NCBI GenBank assembly: GCA_002713205.1
Contig: PAVW01000015.1
Coordinates: 11,791 to 24,290 of the forward strand
Length of the DNA: 12,500 nt
DNA from: Nitrososphaerota archaeon
GTDB taxonomy: Archaea; Thermoproteota; Nitrososphaeria; Nitrososphaerales; UBA57
Direction of reading: 5' to 3'
The notes under the pieces are model-generated. The model was not told where the DNA came from and did no database searches. It was given only the letters and a program-made list of their open reading frames with translations. Within the stretch, counting starts at the first letter, position 1. Each line of letters starts with the position of its first letter. The translations under genes were made by a program, and so were the position numbers. This document shows, in pieces, positions 5,010-11,950 of this stretch.

Positions 5010-6206
5010 CTACCAACCCCATTTTCTTGTAATTGAAAAAGCCTTCATCACTGTAGGCATGTAAGGTATTACTGGTATCAACACCCAATATTTTGGCAAT
5101 AAAGTTTTAAGAATAATTTTTAATTTTCCTGCAGCTGTAATGTTAGTTACATCTGTTTTTCCTACAAGCTCTCCCATTTTTTCCCATCTCTCTGGAGAAA
5201 ACGCATGCATGATTTCCGCGGCTTTTAGTAATGATTTATCAGCTAAAGGCAGATTTTTCCAACATTTTTCATACTTTGATAAGAATTTGGATGAAGTATC
5301 GCCTATTCGAATTGCTTCCGAAGCAATTTCTCCTGATAATTTACCTGTTTGCATTGCTGTTGAAATACCTCCAAGGAACACTGGATTTGTATATCCTCCT
5401 GCATCTCCTGCAATTAATACCCCGTCAGCATATGTTTTTTCTAAAGGTCCTTTGTATGGAATCGCTCCAGCTGTTTTATGCAAAACAGTTCCATTGATTT
5501 TCTTTAATTCGATAAATCGTTCAAGTCGTTTCACACTATCAGTTGCAGTAGTTGCAATTCCAACATTTGCAATTGACTCGCCTTTCTTAAATATCCAAAG
5601 ATAACCACCCGGTGCTATATCAAAATTAAAATACATATCAAACCCTTCGACATCTACCCCTTCCATTTTTAATTCATAAGCTCGAATTAAACACTCTCTC
5701 CATTTTTCTTTTGCAACAAGTCCCGACCACTGAGCCACATTGGATTTAGAACCATCTGCCCCAATTACAATTTTAGTTTTCACAAAAAATGTTTTTTTAT
5801 TTTTAATTACTTTAACGATTTTTTCTTCCAAATCAAAATCTACAACTTTAGCAGACGTCATTAATTCACATCCTACATCTACAGCTCTTTTTACTAAAAA
5901 CTGATCAAATTTATCACGATCCAATTCATAACCGCCATCATGAACTAACATCCAATTACCATTTGCAAAAATTACTTTCAATGTTTTGATATTTGCTGCT
6001 ATAAATTCCTTTTCTGGTTTTATATTTAGATGTTGCAATGCAAAACAACTTAGACCTTCACCACACTGAACTGGTATGCCAACAACAGGATCTTCCTCAA
6101 ACATTAACACCTTTAATCCGCTTTTTGCACATTCATAAGCTGCAGTACTTCCTGCAGGACCTGCACCGACAACAACCACATCGTAATTTAAAACTTCATT
6201 ATTCAT
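5010..6206 (-). CDS. Geranylgeranyl reductase family flavoprotein (digeranylgeranylglycerophospholipid reductase-like)
   Basis: N-terminal Rossmann FAD motif VVVVGAGPAGSTAAYECAKSGLKVLMFEE, IGADGSKSNVAQ, and LIAGDAGGYTNP. The ~400-aa length is typical of archaeal GGR. Confidence 0.9.
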   Translation of the reverse strand: MNNEVLNYDVVVVGAGPAGSTAAYECAKSGLKVLMFEEDPVVGIPVQCGEGLSCFALQHLNIKPEKEFIAANIKTLKVIFANGNWMLVHDGGYELDRDKFDQFLVKRAVDVGCELMTSAKVVDFDLEEKIVKVIKNKKTFFVKTKIVIGADGSKSNVAQWSGLVAKEKWRECLIRAYELKMEGVDVEGFDMYFNFDIAPGGYLWIFKKGESIANVGIATTATDSVKRLERFIELKKINGTVLHKTAGAIPYKGPLEKTYADGVLIAGDAGGYTNPVFLGGISTAMQTGKLSGEIASEAIRIGDTSSKFLSKYEKCWKNLPLADKSLLKAAEIMHAFSPERWEKMGELVGKTDVTNITAAGKLKIILKTLLPKYWVLIPVIPYMPTVMKAFSITRKWGW

Positions 6207-7432: not shown

Positions 7433-10330
7433 ATGAGTGATAATGCAAATTCATTCCCTAAACCTGAATCTCGTAGACTATTCTGGATTCTACCAATTAT
7501 TTTATCAATTATTATAATTTTTTCTTTTATGGGCCAAATTCTGGATTTCTGGCTCAATTACAAAGAATTTGGTGATATATACATACGCCCTCTGTATTTT
7601 GGAATAATCGGCGGAACAATTTTAGCAATGGTCTCTTTTGTAAGAATTGACATTAAAAATCGCAGATCTATAATTTGGTGGCTTCTTGATATAGTAATAC
7701 AAGTTGTTCGCAAACCCAATGATTTTGATAATCCAAAAATAAATATCCAAGACTTTCGTAATTTTTCACTTACTCCAGGTAAATTTGTATTATGGCAACT
7801 AACAAAACTCATTATTATTTCAACATTCTTCCTTAACATGAATGTAGGAATGGCACTTTCGGGGATGTCACAAGGATGGCAATCTGGTTTATCACACATT
7901 CCAAAATTGCTATTATTCCCGTTTATAACACCAACACCTGGTTTTGCAGAACAAAATGTAATTCCTATGATTCCTGCTTTAACATTAATAGTGTATCCGT
8001 TATTAAATTCACTAGGAACAAGATTAGTAATTCTTGTAGGGCTTACCCAACTTCTAAAAGGAATGTCTTCAACAATTATTGAATTCGGTGGTGAACTTCG
8101 AACAGGAAATGACAAATTTGGAGTTGGACCTGATCTAAGCCAAATTAAACTTCCAATATCTACAATAGAAGCATTAATTGCACTGTTTCTCTTTTGGACA
8201 GGTTTTAATTTATTTTTCCCATCATACATTGATTATAATTCTAAATTTATAATTGGAGGATTTTTTGCAGCGGGTATTGCCTTTTCAATTTTCTCCTATT
8301 TAGATTCACCAAAAACAAAACGACTATTCAAACCTTCACGCATTAATTCTATACGTATAGGATCATTACTTCTAATCGGCTTGTTGGTTGGTTCTGCAAT
8401 AGCAGTCCAAGGTAGTATAGCAGATGCCAGAAAAGTAGAGTGGAATGGACCATATACAGATCAAGAAATCGCCGTAAACCGATACTTGGCGAATCTTGGC
8501 AACGTTGATGAAATTCCATATAATTTTAGCCTTACACCACTTTCACGAGATGAAATACGTCCGTATATTGATGAGAATGCCGAACTTTTAGACAAGATTC
8601 GCTTATGGGATCTTGCAGGTGCTGATGCAAAGTTAAAACCTGAAATTGGATTGATTCCATATGTTGACTTTCAGGATACTGATATTCTAAGATTTAACGG
8701 TTCGCTGTATTGGAGCTCTTCCATGAAACCAATACTGCCTGATACAGTTGAAGCAGCAAATGTTTGGTACAATCAACATCTTGTTTACACACATGTACCG
8801 AATGGCTTTCTTCTCCTCGACGGACATGACGGAAAGATAGTTGACACTCAAGACTTTTTCGACCAACGTAAAATTTACTATGGTGAAGGAGGCCTGTTCT
8901 CCGAAACATGGTCGGCATATCCTTCAGCCCGAGAATCCAGTGATGAATTAAATAATTATATGTATTCAGGTAGTGGCGGTATTGATATTTCTCCTCCGTT
9001 AAGTTGGCTATTCGAACCAAATTTCCTTCTTGCCAGACCTTTTGAAACAATACACGCGATGAGGTATAAAGACGTACATGAACGTATGGAGTTGTTATTC
9101 CCTTATTTTGTTTATAATATTGATGGAAGACCTATTGATATGTATCCAGTTACCGACGGCAAGGAGACTTATTGGCTTATGCCACTTATTACAGCATTAG
9201 ATACATCTAATGTTCCATGGAGTGACGGAAACTTTTTCGTTAGGCATGTAGGCTATTCATTAATTAATACCTATGACGGAAACATTTCTCTGTATATATT
9301 GGGAGATGACTATTACAGCGACTTGTTCAAAACACTATATCCAGATTACATTGAGAAAGACATTCCTGAATGGCTTAAAGAACAAACAAGGTATCCAGAA
9401 GAACTTTTTAATTATCGTGTGAATATGTACAACTTTTATCACATAACTGACTCTGCAACATTTATTGAGGCCAGAGAGTTCTTCGAAGTTCCTCCAAATC
9501 TTGACACATACTTCATCCTTGCAAAACCACCCGGTTTTGTTGAAAACGAATTCTTAGGACTCATCTCTTTACAATTACGTGGTTCTCCAGGACAAAACTT
9601 GGCAGGATATATGGTCGTTCGAAATAACTTTGAAAATTTGGGTGAAATGATATTCTATGAGGTTCCACTTGACGCCACGACGAAACTCTTGGGACCTACC
9701 GCCATTCTTGAAGCTTTGGAACGCAATCCTGATTTTGCTACCCTAAGGACATTGCTAAGGAATCCTCGTGTAGGTGATAATATATTGTACAGGGTGGGTG
9801 ACCATGATGTCTACTTTATCCCTGTTTATACTGCCGGAGCTGGTGGTGTTGTAACAAATTTGGGGACTGTGGCAGCTATTGGAGCCGCGTTCGATGGAGA
9901 ATATTATGTTGGTTTTGGAGACACACCCGAAGAGGCGTTTGAACAATTTCTACTCGAATTAAGTGGGGTTAGCGTTAAACAACTTCCTGATCCTGAACCA
10001 AAACCTGGACCAGAACCGGAGATTGTCAGACCAGACATTATCAGGGAAGGCATAAATGAACAAATCTTGGATATATTTTCGGACAATGGAATATCGGTGG
10101 TCACACCAGAAGAAATCCCGTCGCTGTTCAAGTTCAAGGAATTCCAGCTTGGAGAAGATGCTGATTCAGAAACAGTCCAATCTGTTGTAGACGACTTTAT
10201 CAACACTTGGATGAAGTCATTTGATGTAACAAGGATATACTACTGGACTGACGGAAACAGTGTGAATTATGGAGCCGTGATTAACGTCAATGGAGTTTCC
10301 GAATTGCATTACATTACGATTCTAAAATAG
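7433..10330 (+). CDS. UPF0182-family large integral membrane protein (function unknown)
   Basis: 965 aa with a multi-TM N-terminal third and a large soluble region. The motifs match my recollection of UPF0182 proteins such as M. tuberculosis Rv3193c: KIYYGEGG, YSGSGGIDISPPLSWLF, TRYPEELFNYRVNMYNFYHITD and YFIPVYTAGAGG. A Pro/Glu linker PDPEPKPGPEPE (nt ~9983-10021) precedes an extra ~100-aa C-terminal domain. Confidence 0.85.
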   Translation: MSDNANSFPKPESRRLFWILPIILSIIIIFSFMGQILDFWLNYKEFGDIYIRPLYFGIIGGTILAMVSFVRIDIKNRRSIIWWLLDIVIQVVRKPNDFDNPKINIQDFRNFSLTPGKFVLWQLTKLIIISTFFLNMNVGMALSGMSQGWQSGLSHIPKLLLFPFITPTPGFAEQNVIPMIPALTLIVYPLLNSLGTRLVILVGLTQLLKGMSSTIIEFGGELRTGNDKFGVGPDLSQIKLPISTIEALIALFLFWTGFNLFFPSYIDYNSKFIIGGFFAAGIAFSIFSYLDSPKTKRLFKPSRINSIRIGSLLLIGLLVGSAIAVQGSIADARKVEWNGPYTDQEIAVNRYLANLGNVDEIPYNFSLTPLSRDEIRPYIDENAELLDKIRLWDLAGADAKLKPEIGLIPYVDFQDTDILRFNGSLYWSSSMKPILPDTVEAANVWYNQHLVYTHVPNGFLLLDGHDGKIVDTQDFFDQRKIYYGEGGLFSETWSAYPSARESSDELNNYMYSGSGGIDISPPLSWLFEPNFLLARPFETIHAMRYKDVHERMELLFPYFVYNIDGRPIDMYPVTDGKETYWLMPLITALDTSNVPWSDGNFFVRHVGYSLINTYDGNISLYILGDDYYSDLFKTLYPDYIEKDIPEWLKEQTRYPEELFNYRVNMYNFYHITDSATFIEAREFFEVPPNLDTYFILAKPPGFVENEFLGLISLQLRGSPGQNLAGYMVVRNNFENLGEMIFYEVPLDATTKLLGPTAILEALERNPDFATLRTLLRNPRVGDNILYRVGDHDVYFIPVYTAGAGGVVTNLGTVAAIGAAFDGEYYVGFGDTPEEAFEQFLLELSGVSVKQLPDPEPKPGPEPEIVRPDIIREGINEQILDIFSDNGISVVTPEEIPSLFKFKEFQLGEDADSETVQSVVDDFINTWMKSFDVTRIYYWTDGNSVNYGAVINVNGVSELHYITILK

Positions 10331-10341
10331 TTAATAACGTT
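10331..10341 (+). promoter_or_regulatory. TATA-like box TTAATAA overlapping the palindrome TAACGTTA, upstream of the Cys-rich sORF
   Basis: TTAATAA (10331-10337) is centred about 25 nt upstream of ATG 10359. TAACGTTA (10334-10341) is a perfect 8-bp palindrome with imperfect AT arms and could be an operator. Confidence 0.35.
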
Positions 10342-10358: not shown

Positions 10359-10427
10359 ATGGACCCAAACTGCTCTAACACAAATTGCAAATGTACTAAC
10401 TGTACTTGTGATCCTTGTACATGTTAA
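10359..10427 (+). CDS. 22-aa cysteine-rich peptide, metallothionein-like (MDPNCSNTNCKCTNCTCDPCTC)
   Basis: ATG 10359 to TAA 10425-10427. Seven Cys in 22 residues, three C-x-C pairs, no aromatic residues and no His. It has a promoter-like box at canonical spacing and an oligo-T tract downstream. It is too short for the supplied ORF track. Confidence 0.45.
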   Translation: MDPNCSNTNCKCTNCTCDPCTC

Positions 10428-10490
10428 ATAATTAAAAAACTAATTACTCCAAATTTTCACTTGAATTCTTTACATCAACTTTACCACACT

Positions 10491-10505
10491 TTATTTTTCC
10501 TTTTG
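10491..10505 (+). terminator. Oligo-T tract (TTATTTTTCCTTTTG), archaeal-type terminator candidate for the sORF and/or UPF0182 transcript
   Basis: T-rich run on the plus strand 64 nt after the sORF stop. Archaeal RNA polymerase terminates at oligo-T tracts. Confidence 0.3.
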
Positions 10506-10524: not shown

Positions 10525-11175
10525 TTATCTTTCAATTAATTTTACGTTTATATTTGATCTACAACATTCTGGAGAATTTTTAACCACACTTGATTTTTCA
10601 TATTGACTATTTATTATCTCAAATTTGTAATTTCCGTATGGTTCTTCCAATTTATTTTCCTCCCAAAGCCAGATTATTTCATATATTCCTGAATATTCTC
10701 TCGAAAATATATCACAATCCTCGTCTAAGAATAAATCATAACATGCCACTCGTTCAAACTTTATGTACTCTTCAGGTATTGTCAAAGTAGTTCCGTTAGG
10801 ATATGTTGCAATTATCTGTATATTATCCCTGTCTTCGTAATTGAATATCCCTCCGTATAACACCATTATGTTGCCTCGATAGAATTCTGAAGTTACGTAT
10901 TTGTTTTCTAACTCGATAATCTCTCCGTTTTCCGTAACATCTCCCCAAAATATCACATCCAATGTCGGAATATACAGTTCAACTTTCATTATCACTTCTT
11001 CTATTTTGTTTATTTCCTCAATGTATTGATAGTACTCGAATCCTCCTACTAGTAAAATTCCTATTAATCCCATTACTATTGCAGTTTTGTAGTTTATCCA
11101 CCTGCTAGCCTTACTTTGTTTCTTTTCAGGACCTCTTGTTGTGGAGAATCCTTGTTCTGAATTATTTTCTGTCAT
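10525..11175 (-). CDS. Hypothetical single-pass (type II) membrane protein with a Cys-containing extracytoplasmic domain
   Basis: Charged N-terminus (KKQSKASRW), then TM segment TAIVMGLIGILLVGGF, then a ~165-aa beta-rich-looking domain with Cys at VACYD, DEDCD and SPECCR. No family recognised. Confidence 0.7.
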   Translation of the reverse strand: MTENNSEQGFSTTRGPEKKQSKASRWINYKTAIVMGLIGILLVGGFEYYQYIEEINKIEEVIMKVELYIPTLDVIFWGDVTENGEIIELENKYVTSEFYRGNIMVLYGGIFNYEDRDNIQIIATYPNGTTLTIPEEYIKFERVACYDLFLDEDCDIFSREYSGIYEIIWLWEENKLEEPYGNYKFEIINSQYEKSSVVKNSPECCRSNINVKLIER

Positions 11176-11311: not shown

Positions 11312-11950
11312 TTGAATATACACGGAATAATCTTCGATTTTGACGGTACGTTAATCGACACATTCGACACACATCTACGATCATGGAGAGAGGCATTTGA
11401 ATCTACAGGAACTACCATGAACAATGATGAATTCATCAAAAACTTTGGCAAATCTCACAAAGATTTTACTTTCAGCATAAATCCTTCTCTGACCAATTAT
11501 GATATTGATAAAATTATTCAAATCGAAAAAAAACTTATGAAGGAACGTTCCAATCAGTATACTCTTTTCCCAGAAACTTATCAAGTACTTGAAAAACTAA
11601 ATGAAAAGAACATCCAATGCATGATTGCTTCGTCCAATCCCAGACACGTAACCGAGCAACTGCTTGAACAATTTAAAATTAAGCACCTGATTGGCAAAGT
11701 GGTTGGACCCGACGACGTAAAAAATGGCAAACCCGCACCTGATATGTTGCTTTTTGCCCTAAAACACCATAACATTGATCCAAAACATTCGATTATGATT
11801 GGAGATACATCACATGATATTCTAGCTGGAAAAAACGCATCCACAAAGACAGCTCTCATACTCCGCCGTGAACATCAGGAAAGCGTGCTTGCAACCAATC
11901 CGGATTATGTGCTTACCAATCTTAAAGAATTATTCAAATTTTTAGATTAG
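11312..11950 (+). CDS. HAD-superfamily hydrolase, subfamily IA (phosphoglycolate phosphatase / beta-phosphoglucomutase-like)
   Basis: Motif I IIFDFDGTLIDT, motif II IASSN, motif III KNGKPAPD, motif IV IGDTSHDILAG. A TTG start is required because motif I begins at residue 7 and there is no upstream in-frame ATG. Confidence 0.88.
   Translation: MNIHGIIFDFDGTLIDTFDTHLRSWREAFESTGTTMNNDEFIKNFGKSHKDFTFSINPSLTNYDIDKIIQIEKKLMKERSNQYTLFPETYQVLEKLNEKNIQCMIASSNPRHVTEQLLEQFKIKHLIGKVVGPDDVKNGKPAPDMLLFALKHHNIDPKHSIMIGDTSHDILAGKNASTKTALILRREHQESVLATNPDYVLTNLKELFKFLD

What the first reader, a model, noticed from the sequence alone, without database searches (positions are those of the whole stretch)
10359..10427. 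Unannotated 22-codon cysteine-rich sORF: candidate minimal archaeal metallothionein
Seen in the sequence: ATG GAC CCA AAC TGC TCT AAC ACA AAT TGC AAA TGT ACT AAC TGT ACT TGT GAT CCT TGT ACA TGT TAA encodes MDPNCSNTNCKCTNCTCDPCTC. It has 7 Cys in 22 residues (32%), spaced C-x4-C-x-C-x2-C-x-C-x2-C-x-C, with three C-x-C pairs, no aromatic residues and no His. Those are the defining compositional traits of metallothioneins. The first six residues, MDPNCS, are the same as the N-terminus of vertebrate MT-1/MT-2. Size and Cys count are close to the 25-residue, 7-Cys Cu(I)-thionein of Neurospora crassa (established knowledge, recalled from memory). The sORF looks like its own transcription unit: TTAATAA at 10331-10337 is centred about 25 nt upstream of the ATG, matching the spacing I see for the other genes here, and an oligo-T tract follows at 10491-10505. 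The TATA-like box overlaps the palindrome TAACGTTA (10334-10341), a possible repressor site. Inference: ammonia-oxidising archaea depend heavily on copper enzymes and are sensitive to free Cu, so a Cu(I)/Zn-buffering thionein would make physiological sense. I know of no experimentally characterised archaeal metallothionein.
Basis: partly seen in the sequence, partly recalled or inferred. Interest (0 to 1): 0.75.

Follow-up and report, generated by a model that had tools for sequence, protein, structure and literature searches.

The report
Conserved 22-residue metallothionein-like archaeal micro-gene
A 22-codon gene that annotation pipelines miss encodes a seven-cysteine peptide under strong purifying selection in marine ammonia-oxidising archaea; it belongs to an unnamed peptide family also found in marine bacteria and phages, and its sequence looks like a minimal metal-binding metallothionein, a protein class one review says is absent from archaea.

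Summary
Window 10359-10427 (+) encodes MDPNCSNTNCKCTNCTCDPCTC, and this is not a chance ORF.

- **Orthologues:** Eleven further contigs from marine thaumarchaea carry the peptide at the same locus. Their flanking enzymes are only 67-89% identical to the window's, yet the peptide matches at 19-22 of 22 residues.
- **Selection:** 14 of 18 variable columns are third codon positions. pS is 0.5-1.1 against pN 0-0.07. All seven Cys and the ATG are kept.
- **Promoter:** A TATA-like box sits about 20-29 nt upstream of the ATG in every orthologue.
- **Wider family:** The peptide belongs to a family of 19-26-residue peptides with core C-x-N-P-N-C-x-C-x2-C-x-C-x2-C-x-C-stop. I found 57 distinct cores. 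Most have Shine-Dalgarno sites, so they are bacterial or phage genes; one lies on a T4-like phage contig.
- **Annotation:** Thirteen family peptides were looked up by exact sequence in a 15-billion-protein collection and none is there. None of the nine scanned matches Pfam, and none of the five scanned matches NCBIfam or PHROGs.
- **Metallothionein link:** A family profile retrieves genuine plant-type metallothioneins (PF01439) and aligns to their C-terminal Cys domain (hhalign probability 95.8%).

Best reading: a cytoplasmic metal-thiolate (metallothionein-like) micropeptide. Metal binding and metal identity are untested. The proposed palindromic repressor site is not conserved.

The parts
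10359..10427 (+). 22-codon protein-coding gene (ATG to TAA) encoding MDPNCSNTNCKCTNCTCDPCTC
   Evidence: Translation. Eleven further contigs carry an orthologue: L132, L231, L194, L201, L221, L253, L256, L270, L272, L293, L294, L300; L133 holds only the 3' half of the same peptide. 14 of 18 variable columns are at codon position 3, with pS 0.5-1.1 against pN 0-0.07.
10371..10424 (+). 18-residue seven-Cys core (C-S-N-T-N-C-K-C-T-N-C-T-C-D-P-C-T-C), the family-defining module
   Evidence: All seven Cys are invariant in 57 distinct family cores, and those cores contain no aromatic residue or His. The core aligns to the C-terminal Cys domain of a PF01439 metallothionein.
10331..10337 (+). TATA-like box TTAATAA at -28 to -22 from the ATG; inferred promoter of a leaderless or near-leaderless transcript
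   Evidence: A TTTAATA(T/A)T or TTAATA box lies within -20 to -29 of the ATG in every orthologue, although the rest of the upstream flank has diverged. Other window genes show the same spacing. The function is inferred, not shown.
10428..10450 (+). Remnant of the ancestral spacer between the sORF and the HAD gene; the stop codon plus AATAATTAAAAAA resembles the TATA box that serves HAD in relatives
   Evidence: The window sequence ataattaaaaaactaattactcc matches L294 (ataattaaaaactaactacacc) and L256, then diverges where the hyp216 gene is inserted. Lineages without the sORF keep the same stretch in front of HAD.
10491..10505 (+). T-rich tract (tttatttttcctttt), a possible archaeal oligo-T terminator for the sORF transcript
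   Evidence: Read directly from the sequence. Its role as a terminator is inferred, and such tracts are common in this 33% GC DNA.
7433..10330 (+). UPF0182 gene, the upstream neighbour; it ends 28 nt before the sORF
   Evidence: Pfam PF03699, E=3.3e-38. It is syntenic in L194, L253, L256, L272, L300, L293 and L201.
10525..11175 (-). Hypothetical 216-aa gene, convergent with the sORF; a lineage-specific insertion between the sORF and HAD
   Evidence: No Pfam family. It is absent between the sORF and HAD in L194, L221, L253, L256, L270, L272, L293, L294 and L300. Its homologues sit in other contexts.
11312..11950 (+). HAD-family hydrolase; in eight of the eleven orthologous contigs it starts 26-29 nt downstream of the sORF stop
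   Evidence: Pfam HAD_2, E=3e-41. Adjacency is shown.

Best explanation
Window 10359-10427 is a real, independently transcribed gene. It encodes a 22-residue cytoplasmic peptide whose seven cysteine thiolates most likely wrap a small metal-thiolate cluster. In other words it is a minimal metallothionein-like metal buffer or store. By analogy with 6-7-Cys metallothionein domains, the cluster could hold about two divalent ions (Zn or Cd) or several Cu(I) ions.

Shown: it is a conserved coding gene under strong purifying selection. It belongs to a family of 19-26-residue Cys7 peptides that spans archaea, bacteria and phages. The family profile resembles the C-terminal Cys domain of plant-type metallothioneins.

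Inferred: a TATA-like box about 25 nt upstream gives a leaderless mRNA. The peptide has no signal sequence, so it stays in the reducing cytoplasm. Folding is driven by metal binding. In a copper-dependent ammonia oxidiser the physiological metal may be Cu(I), but Zn or Cd is equally open. The gene has been lost in some sister lineages, which fits a conditionally useful accessory function.
For: **It is a coding gene**
- Eleven further contigs, with HAD 67-89% and UPF0182 67-84% identical to the window (apart from near-identical strains), keep 19-22 of 22 residues, the ATG, the stop and all 7 Cys.
- 14 of 18 variable columns are third codon positions. L194 against L256 shows 13 synonymous and 0 non-synonymous differences. 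Four Cys codons switch between TGT and TGC.
- In L194 an in-frame stop lies two codons before the ATG.
- The promoter box keeps its position while the rest of the flank diverges.

**It does not depend on its downstream gene**
- The sORF is intact when followed by HAD, by a protease gene (L201) or by a convergent gene (the window).

**It belongs to a family**
- Architecture-based DNA scans found 57 distinct cores of the form C-x-N-P-N-C-x-C-x2-C-x-C-x2-C-x-C.
- Composition is 39% Cys and 20% Asn, plus Pro, Asp, Glu and Lys, with no aromatic residue or His.
- The non-archaeal members have AGGAG-type ribosome-binding sites.
- One member is on a T4-like phage contig (portal protein, E=1.7e-163).

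**It resembles metallothioneins**
- An exhaustive hmmsearch of 1.84 billion proteins with the family profile gave 56 hits. These include the PF01439 metallothioneins P0090 and P0082.
- hhalign of the family against P0090 gave probability 95.8% over 18 columns.
- Relatives with 9 Cys and multi-module relatives exist.
- Seven is an odd number of Cys and there is no signal peptide. Both argue against a disulfide-knotted secreted peptide.
- No secondary structure is predicted, as expected for apo-metallothioneins.

**Circumstantial**
- In L293 and L201 the gene immediately upstream encodes a membrane protein with MauE and a weak YHS (putative metal-binding) domain.
- MymT is a precedent for a bacterial metallothionein hidden in an unannotated small ORF (PMC7558416).
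Against: - No metal binding, transcript or peptide has been observed.
- The similarity to plant metallothioneins rests on 18 Cys-dominated columns. It could be convergence or compositional bias. The library-wide E-values are only 5e-4 to 8e-4.
- No Pfam metallothionein model matches the peptide, and no PDB metallothionein matches significantly.
- Gene neighbourhoods are heterogeneous, and no metal-responsive regulator or transporter recurs.
- Recurrent links to thioredoxin-fold proteins fit a thiol-redox role as well as a metal role. These are fusions P0061 and P0084, and a neighbour in L142.
- The gene is absent from many related thaumarchaea, so it is not essential for copper-dependent ammonia oxidation.
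Confidence: 0.6

Rival explanations
1. The peptide is a thiol-redox micropeptide. It would act as a sacrificial or catalytic polythiol (an oxidant or electrophile scavenger, or a substrate or partner of thioredoxin-fold proteins) rather than as a metal store.
For: The Cys7 module is fused to thioredoxin-fold domains in P0061 and P0084. A thioredoxin with a hydrophobic N-terminus lies two genes from the sORF in the phage-like contig L142. A thioredoxin gene lies nearby in L294.
Against: C-x-C triplets are poor disulfide formers but typical of metal-thiolate clusters. Seven Cys cannot all pair. The spacing is strictly conserved, and residues such as the N-P-N turn are conserved too, which suggests a defined cluster geometry. 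The profile retrieves metallothioneins, not redox proteins. Metallothioneins are themselves redox-active, so the two roles are not exclusive.
Confidence: 0.15
2. The peptide is a structural or regulatory micro-protein. It would use its cysteines to hold one or two structural metals, or an Fe-S cluster, and act by binding a partner protein. Its job would then be regulation or assembly, not metal buffering.
For: Many conserved prokaryotic micro-proteins act as subunits or regulators. In one bacterial group the gene follows the alternative complex III cytochrome c gene directly (L205, L242). Non-Cys positions such as N7, P/T8 and N9 are conserved beyond what chelation alone requires.
Against: No single partner gene is conserved across the archaeal, bacterial and phage contexts. 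The Cys spacing matches no ferredoxin or zinc-ribbon motif. Tandem and multi-module relatives behave like modular metallothioneins.
Confidence: 0.12
3. The sORF is a cis-acting leader peptide (uORF) whose translation senses cysteine or Cys-tRNA supply and controls the downstream HAD hydrolase gene.
For: In eight of the eleven orthologous thaumarchaeal contigs the sORF ends 26-29 nt before the HAD start on the same strand. Classical attenuation leaders are short and rich in one amino acid.
Against: Purifying selection acts on the non-Cys residues too. The sORF stays intact where HAD is displaced by another gene, as in the window and in L201. Bacterial and phage homologues precede unrelated genes. 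HAD appears to have its own TATA box overlapping the sORF stop, and that box is retained in lineages that lost the sORF. HAD has no known link to cysteine metabolism.
Confidence: 0.03
4. The peptide is the precursor of a ribosomally synthesised, post-translationally modified peptide, for example a thioether-linked or copper-chelating natural product.
For: It is short and Cys-rich. Some chalkophore and ranthipeptide precursors are of similar size.
Against: There is no leader-plus-core organisation in 19-22 residues. No radical-SAM enzyme, cyclodehydratase, protease or exporter gene lies next to it in any of the contexts examined.
Confidence: 0.03
5. It is a chance ORF, or a DNA or RNA element such as a TGTAC repeat, and is not translated.
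For: It is only 69 nt long and contains three TGTAC motifs. No gene caller reports it.
Against: Substitutions have a three-base periodicity and are synonymous. Cys is conserved through TGT/TGC switches. The ATG and stop are conserved. There are 57 homologous cores across domains. No Rfam match was found. The shuffles argue against chance.
Confidence: 0.01

Closest known systems
C-terminal Cys-rich domain of plant-type (type 1/2) metallothioneins, Pfam PF01439 Metallothio_2
   Same: It ends at or near the C-terminus with C-x-C-x2-C-x-C-x2-C-x-C, including C-x-C-[DN]-P-C-T-C (P0090...GCKCNPCTCNPCTCK). The family profile retrieves PF01439 proteins from 1.84 billion sequences and aligns to this domain over 18 columns.
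   Different: Plant metallothioneins are 60-85 aa, with two Cys domains separated by a long Cys-free spacer. The aligned domain has 6 Cys, not 7. The window peptide gets no PF01439 hit. Common ancestry cannot be told apart from convergence over so short a Cys motif.
Neurospora crassa Cu(I)-metallothionein (PDB 1T2Y)
   Same: It is a single-domain metallothionein of almost the same size (25 aa) and with the same Cys count (7). It is rich in C-x-C, with no aromatic residue or His. From my own knowledge, it binds 6 Cu(I).
   Different: The Cys spacing differs (C-x-C-x5-C-x-C-x3-C-x-C-x2-C). Its filler residues are Gly and Ser, where this family has Asn, Pro, Asp and Lys. The family profile does not detect it even at E<=10.
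Vertebrate MT-1/MT-2 beta domain (PDB 2MHU, Pfam PF00131)
   Same: The first six residues, MDPNCS, are identical. Both have C-x-C motifs, a high Cys fraction and Lys next to Cys.
   Different: The beta domain has 9 Cys with different spacing. There is no Pfam match. The N-terminus is variable across the family (MLNAC, MESKC, MC...), so the MDPNCS identity is best read as coincidence or convergence.
Mycobacterium MymT and cyanobacterial SmtA/BmtA bacterial metallothioneins
   Same: They are prokaryotic cytoplasmic Cys-rich metal buffers. MymT was likewise hidden in a small unannotated ORF and is predicted to bind up to six Cu(I) (PMC7558416). From my own knowledge, SmtA contains a C-x-C-x2-C-x-C stretch.
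   Different: From my own knowledge, both are about 53-56 aa and use His as well as Cys, and SmtA has a zinc-finger-like fold. No sequence match was found (no PF02069 hit).

Membership tests
Metallothionein (operational definition: small, Cys-rich, metal-thiolate cluster protein) | Low molecular mass and about 30% Cys arranged in C-x-C / C-x-x-C motifs | tested here: met
   22 aa with 7 Cys (32%): three C-x-C and two C-x2-C motifs. The family cores are 39% Cys.
Metallothionein (operational definition: small, Cys-rich, metal-thiolate cluster protein) | Few or no aromatic residues and no hydrophobic core | tested here: met
   The window peptive has none of these residues: no F, W, Y or H in the window peptide or in the 57 family cores. 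AF2 predicts no secondary structure.
Metallothionein (operational definition: small, Cys-rich, metal-thiolate cluster protein) | Binds several metal ions in thiolate clusters with characteristic spectroscopy | not testable with these tools
   This needs peptide chemistry: ESI-MS, UV and CD titrations with Cu(I), Zn(II) and Cd(II).
Metallothionein (operational definition: small, Cys-rich, metal-thiolate cluster protein) | Expression or phenotype linked to metal supply | not testable with these tools
   No expression data were available. No metal-responsive regulator is consistently adjacent.
Plant-type metallothionein, Pfam PF01439 | Significant match to the PF01439 model | tested here: not met
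   No Pfam family at E<=1 for the window peptide, or at E<=10 for four relatives.
Plant-type metallothionein, Pfam PF01439 | Similarity to the C-terminal Cys domain | tested here: met
   The family profile hits P0090 and P0082 (PF01439, E=1e-25 and 7e-16) at library-wide E=8e-4 and 5e-4. hhalign gives probability 95.8%.
Plant-type metallothionein, Pfam PF01439 | Two Cys-rich domains joined by a long Cys-free linker | tested here: not met
   The peptide is a single 18-residue module with a 4-residue N-terminus.
Vertebrate metallothionein, Pfam PF00131 | Match to the family model, including the beta-domain Cys pattern | tested here: not met
   No Pfam hit. Only the hexapeptide MDPNCS is shared.
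Bacterial SmtA/BmtA metallothionein, Pfam PF02069 | Match to the family model; Cys plus His ligands | tested here: not met
   No Pfam or NCBIfam hit. The peptide has no His.
Fungal Cu-metallothionein (N. crassa type) | Cys spacing C-x-C-x5-C-x-C-x3-C-x-C-x2-C | tested here: not met
   The spacing here is C-x4-C-x-C-x2-C-x-C-x2-C-x-C. 1T2Y is not found by the family profile.
New Cys7 micropeptide family defined here (C-x-N-P-N-C-x-C-x2-C-x-C-x2-C-x-C-stop) | All seven Cys in register, Asn at core position 3, and a stop directly after the last Cys | tested here: met
   The window peptide aligns without gaps to 32 other members, and all Cys are invariant. N3 and the terminal stop were partly imposed by the search pattern. 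L294 has Lys at that position.
Attenuation leader peptide / regulatory uORF | Function depends on a fixed downstream gene; only the regulatory codons are conserved | tested here: not met
   The downstream gene varies. Non-Cys residues are under purifying selection.
RiPP precursor peptide | Adjacent maturation enzyme or exporter genes; leader plus core organisation | tested here: not met
   None in the window or in any context examined.

The most novel reading that the evidence does not exclude
These peptides are the smallest gene-encoded metallothioneins known (19-26 residues). On this reading they form a new metallothionein family shared by marine Thaumarchaeota, diverse marine bacteria and T4-like phages. 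The family has stayed invisible because every member falls below gene-calling length cut-offs. The archaeal members would be the first metallothioneins in Archaea. In ammonia oxidisers they would buffer or store Cu(I), or Zn/Cd, for a copper-heavy metabolism. Phage carriage would suggest that metal buffering is an auxiliary function exploited during infection and moved horizontally.
Probability: 0.45. Interest if true: 0.85.

Novelty: new variant of a known kind. Interest (0 to 1): 0.72.

Why it matters
- **Archaeal metallothioneins:** A 2013 review states flatly that 'MTs are absent in archaea' (PMC3600143). Only two bacterial metallothioneins have been studied functionally (PMC7387436). A conserved, selected, metallothionein-like gene in marine ammonia-oxidising archaea gives a concrete and cheap test of that view, because a 22-mer can be made synthetically.
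- **Copper handling:** From my own knowledge, these archaea depend heavily on copper enzymes and can be copper-limited or copper-stressed in the sea. The peptide is a candidate for how they handle intracellular copper or zinc.
- **A hidden family:** An entire family spanning archaea, bacteria and phages has escaped a 15-billion-protein collection, Pfam, NCBIfam and PHROGs purely because of its size. It can be recovered with a simple architecture-based DNA pattern.
- **Phage copies:** They raise the possibility of metal-homeostasis auxiliary genes in marine viruses.

Tried and rejected
- **Direct protein searches with the 22-mer.** I worked around this with degenerate DNA patterns and a doubled-peptide alignment.
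- **Synteny through UPF0182 in GTDB genomes.** This found only 11 distant loci (51-64% identity), none with a Cys-rich sORF.
- **Synteny through the 216-aa downstream gene.** This recovered only near-identical strains. More distant homologues sit in other contexts, because that gene is a lineage-specific insertion.
- **Cys-only DNA pattern.** Too permissive.
- **tblastn of the peptides against the phage GenBank collection.** No match, probably because of the low-complexity filter.
- **Family libraries and databases.** Pfam, NCBIfam, PHROGs, PDB and Rfam gave nothing significant.
- **Literature search for the sequence motifs and for archaeal metallothioneins.** No prior description found.
- **AlphaFold2 on a 35-aa relative.** Mean pLDDT was 60.7 with no secondary structure. 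I ran no fold search because the model is too weak.
- **Palindrome TAACGTTA as an operator.** Rejected because it is not conserved.
- **Leader-peptide, RiPP and chance-ORF readings.** Considered and rejected for the reasons given under the rival explanations.
Full report
**1. Observation**

Window 10359-10427 (+) reads ATG...TAA and translates to MDPNCSNTNCKCTNCTCDPCTC. That is 7 Cys in 22 residues, spaced C-x4-C-x-C-x2-C-x-C-x2-C-x-C, with no aromatic residue and no His.

The window is 33% GC. Its genes are typical of a thaumarchaeal chromosome:
- UPF0182 (7433-10330)
- DinB-type polymerase
- geranylgeranyl reductase
- Snf7/CdvB-like protein
- thioredoxin-reductase-like protein
- HAD hydrolase (11312-11950)

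TTAATAA lies at -28 to -22 from the ATG. Other window genes have A/T boxes at similar distances.

PDB 2MHU (MT-2 beta domain) starts MDPNCSC. PDB 1T2Y (N. crassa metallothionein) is 25 aa with 7 Cys.

**2. Chance**

Among 123 ATG ORFs of 10-60 aa in the window, this one is by far the most Cys-rich. The next best has 3 Cys. Only 2 of 2000 second-order Markov simulations of the window produced an ATG ORF of 30 aa or less with 7 Cys. The exact Cys-codon spacing never occurred in 200 dinucleotide shuffles, even with two mismatches allowed. These figures are suggestive on their own. Comparative data settle the matter.

**3. Orthologues and selection**

Near-identical contigs carry the same peptide: L132 and L231, with L133 partial. 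L132 differs by one synonymous TGC>TGT change.

A metagenome scan with a degenerate core pattern (parsed) added more contigs. So did look-ups through the HAD neighbour. Together they gave nine more divergent thaumarchaeal contigs: L194, L201, L221, L253, L256, L270, L272, L293 (NCBI MAG GCA_022451545.1, 'Nitrososphaerales archaeon'), L294 and L300.

All of these are syntenic with the window. Their UPF0182 is 67-84% and their HAD 67-89% identical to the window proteins. The peptide itself matches at 19-21 of 22 residues.

Across nine distinct DNA sequences, 18 columns vary, and 14 of those are third codon positions. Four of the seven Cys codons switch between TGT and TGC. Pairwise pS is 0.5-1.1 against pN 0-0.07. 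L194 against L256 shows 13 synonymous and 0 non-synonymous differences.

The only amino-acid changes seen in the group are P8T, T13V, D18N, N7K and T21A. In L194 an in-frame TAA lies two codons upstream of the ATG, which fixes the start.

This is the signature of a translated gene under strong purifying selection.

**4. Transcription unit and neighbourhood**

The sequence upstream of the ATG has diverged almost completely between lineages. A TTTAATA(T/A)T or TTAATA box nevertheless stays within -20 to -29 of the ATG in all of them. This fits an archaeal TATA box driving a leaderless or near-leaderless mRNA; that reading is an inference.

The palindrome TAACGTTA overlapping the box in the window is absent from the orthologues. 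It is therefore not supported as an operator.

The conserved downstream partner is the HAD gene. In eight of the eleven orthologous contigs it starts 26-29 nt after the sORF stop. UPF0182 is the immediate upstream neighbour in the window and in L256, L272, L294 and L300. In L293 and L201, two other genes lie between UPF0182 and the sORF. One of them encodes a membrane protein with a MauE domain and a weak YHS domain.

In the window lineage, a 216-aa hypothetical gene (10525-11175, minus strand) has been inserted between the sORF and HAD. The first ~23 nt after the stop still match the ancestral spacer. In L201 a trypsin-like protease gene separates the sORF from HAD. The sORF is intact in all of these arrangements, so it does not depend on HAD.

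Some sister lineages lack the sORF (L290-292 and L297-299). They retain GATTATTGTACATATTAAATAAC in front of HAD. This is homologous to the sORF's last codons plus spacer, GATCCTTGTACATGTTAAATAAT. I read this as secondary loss with a breakpoint inside the sORF. It also suggests that the HAD TATA box overlaps the sORF stop codon.

More distant thaumarchaeal loci have no Cys-rich sORF at this position. These are L001-L011, with UPF0182 51-64% identical, and L295/296, with HAD 42% identical. The gene is therefore an accessory gene of one marine clade.

**5. A family across archaea, bacteria and phages**

A scan of IMG/VR for the bare architecture (ATG-N9-[Cys pattern]-stop) returned 14 hits. Ten of them were clearly homologous 22-mers, for example MLNACKNPDCKCENCNCKNCDC and MESKCDNPNCKCDPCTCNPCEC.

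Dropping the ATG requirement added 19-23-residue forms, such as MCNNPNCKCNPCNCKDCKC.

About half of those rows were genuine members and the rest were Cys-codon repeats.

Altogether there are 57 distinct cores. The consensus is C-[DNES]-N-P-N-C-[KET]-C-x-[NP]-C-x-C-x-[PN]-C-x-C followed directly by a stop. Composition is 39% Cys and 20% Asn, plus Pro, Asp, Glu and Lys, with no aromatic residue or His. One caveat applies: Asn at core position 3 and the terminal stop were partly imposed by the search pattern.

Nearly all non-MDPNC members have an AGGAG-type Shine-Dalgarno site 6-9 nt upstream, so they are bacterial or phage genes. The MDPNC group has the TATA-type arrangement instead.

Contexts vary widely:
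- a T4-like phage contig (L149; portal Gp20, E=1.7e-163)
- phage-like contigs, one encoding a thioredoxin (L142) and one an H-NOX protein (L148)
- the end of an alternative complex III operon (L205, L242)
- upstream of phosphotriesterase-family genes (L283, L255)
- next to SDR, DJ-1, Amt and HbpS-like genes

No RiPP maturase, exporter or metal regulator recurs.

**6. Not annotated anywhere**

Thirteen family peptides were looked up by exact sequence in the 15-billion-protein collection and none is there. Pfam scans of nine peptides and NCBIfam and PHROGs scans of five gave no hit, and two PDB searches (the window peptide and the family profile) and an Rfam scan of the region found nothing significant.

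Only longer relatives are in protein databases. These arise from upstream alternative starts or C-terminal extensions, and all are unnamed with no Pfam domain. Literature searches for the motifs and for archaeal metallothioneins found no description.

**7. Relation to metallothioneins**

I ran an exhaustive hmmsearch of 1.84 billion representative proteins with a profile built from the window peptide and the longer relatives. It gave 56 hits at E<=1e-3.

- **Plant-type metallothioneins.** P0090 and P0082 score E=1.3e-25 and 7.2e-16 against PF01439 Metallothio_2. The match is to their C-terminal domain...GCKCNPCTCNPCTCK.
- **Profile-to-sequence alignment.** hhalign of the 33-member family alignment against P0090 gives probability 95.8% over 18 columns. 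Six of the seven Cys align.
- **Modular relatives.** Other hits include 9-Cys forms with a ...DNPCGC extension, tandem and multi-module proteins built from C-x-C-x-P-C-x-C-x-P-C-x-C units, and forms that by inspection carry a C-terminal hydrophobic tail (P0039, P0041, P0091).
- **Fusions.** There are fusions to thioredoxin-fold domains (P0061, P0084) and to a CAP domain (P0066).

This modular behaviour is typical of metallothioneins. AlphaFold2 on a 35-aa relative predicts no secondary structure (pLDDT 60.7). That is uninformative, though it is compatible with folding that depends on metal.

**8. Mechanism**

Several features together make a metal-thiolate cluster peptide the best-supported mechanism (confidence about 0.6):
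- seven invariant Cys in an 18-residue polar module with no hydrophobic core
- an odd number of Cys
- no signal peptide
- C-x-C and C-x2-C spacing
- modular relatives
- profile similarity to a genuine metallothionein domain

The following rests on my own knowledge of related domains. The wheat Ec-1 gamma domain has 6 Cys holding Zn2, and N. crassa metallothionein has 7 Cys holding Cu(I)6. By that analogy the peptide could hold about two divalent ions or several Cu(I). Which metal it binds is open. The copper argument for ammonia oxidisers is plausible but untested, and the family's presence in unrelated bacteria and phages argues for a general role.

The main rival is a thiol-redox role linked to thioredoxin-fold proteins (0.15). 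Next is a partner-binding structural or Fe-S micro-protein (0.12). The leader-peptide, RiPP-precursor and chance-ORF readings are each at or below 0.03, for the reasons listed under the rival explanations.

**9. Novelty and verdict**

The peptide does not belong to any curated metallothionein family, because every model test failed. It does meet every sequence-level criterion of the operational metallothionein definition, and it resembles the plant-type C-terminal domain.

I classify it as a new variant of a known kind. It is a new, very small metallothionein-like family. This window carries an archaeal member, set against a published statement that metallothioneins are absent from archaea (PMC3600143). 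MymT is a precedent for a metallothionein hidden in an unannotated small ORF (PMC7558416).

**10. Limits**
- There is no expression or metal-binding evidence.
- The metagenome scan was truncated at 120 rows, so family size and taxonomic spread are lower bounds.
- Homology to plant metallothioneins cannot be told apart from convergence.

Noticed in passing
window 10525-11175 (-), with L134 and L135-L141: The 216-aa hypothetical gene between the sORF and HAD is a lineage-specific insertion. Its homologues (66-84% identity) sit in quite different neighbourhoods, next to a Band_7 gene or an S6PP/HAD-type hydrolase. It matches no Pfam family, so it may be a mobile or rapidly relocating gene.
   Followed up: partly
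L293 5234-5860 and L201 2980-3606: In two thaumarchaeal lineages, the gene immediately upstream of the sORF encodes a 208-aa membrane protein. It has a MauE domain and a weak N-terminal YHS domain (E=2e-5, below the Pfam cut-off). From my own knowledge, YHS is a putative metal-binding module. This is a possible functional link to metal handling.
   Followed up: partly
L297 about 2455-2500, L290 about 5955-6000, L298 about 95-140: Lineages without the sORF keep an ~18-nt remnant of its 3' end, GATTATTGTACATATTAA, directly upstream of HAD. The retained stretch looks like the HAD TATA box overlapping the former stop codon.
   Followed up: yes
L205 9800-10560 and L242 about 1460-2209: In one bacterial group the 23-aa family member starts within a few bases of the stop of the cytochrome c gene, which follows the NrfD-like and ActD genes of an alternative complex III operon. 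This suggests translational coupling to a respiratory operon.
   Followed up: partly
proteins P0061, P0084, P0066, P0039, P0041, P0091: The Cys7 module also occurs fused to other elements. P0061 and P0084 carry it upstream of a thioredoxin-fold domain, and P0061 has a hydrophobic N-terminal stretch (by inspection). P0066 carries it next to a CAP domain. P0039, P0041 and P0091 carry it ahead of a C-terminal hydrophobic tail (by inspection).
   Followed up: partly
L148 5819-6370 and L142 5064-5492: Two IMG/VR contigs that carry the sORF encode unusual cargo for phages. L148 has an H-NOX (haem-NO-binding) protein (PF07700, E=2e-45). L142 has a thioredoxin with a hydrophobic N-terminus. These contigs lack recognisable Pfam structural genes in the stretch I examined.
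   Followed up: no
proteins P0075, P0060, P0088, P0051, P0065, P0073, P0080: These are long acidic proteins with 2-6 repeats of a C-x-C-x-P-C-x-C-x-P-C-x-C module and no Pfam family. They look like unannotated multi-domain metallothionein-like proteins of unknown origin, possibly eukaryotic.
   Followed up: no
window 11934-11950, with L290 6623-6639: The 3' ends of the HAD gene and the convergent luciferase-like monooxygenase gene overlap by 17 nt. The overlap is conserved in relatives.
   Followed up: no
   Followed up: yes
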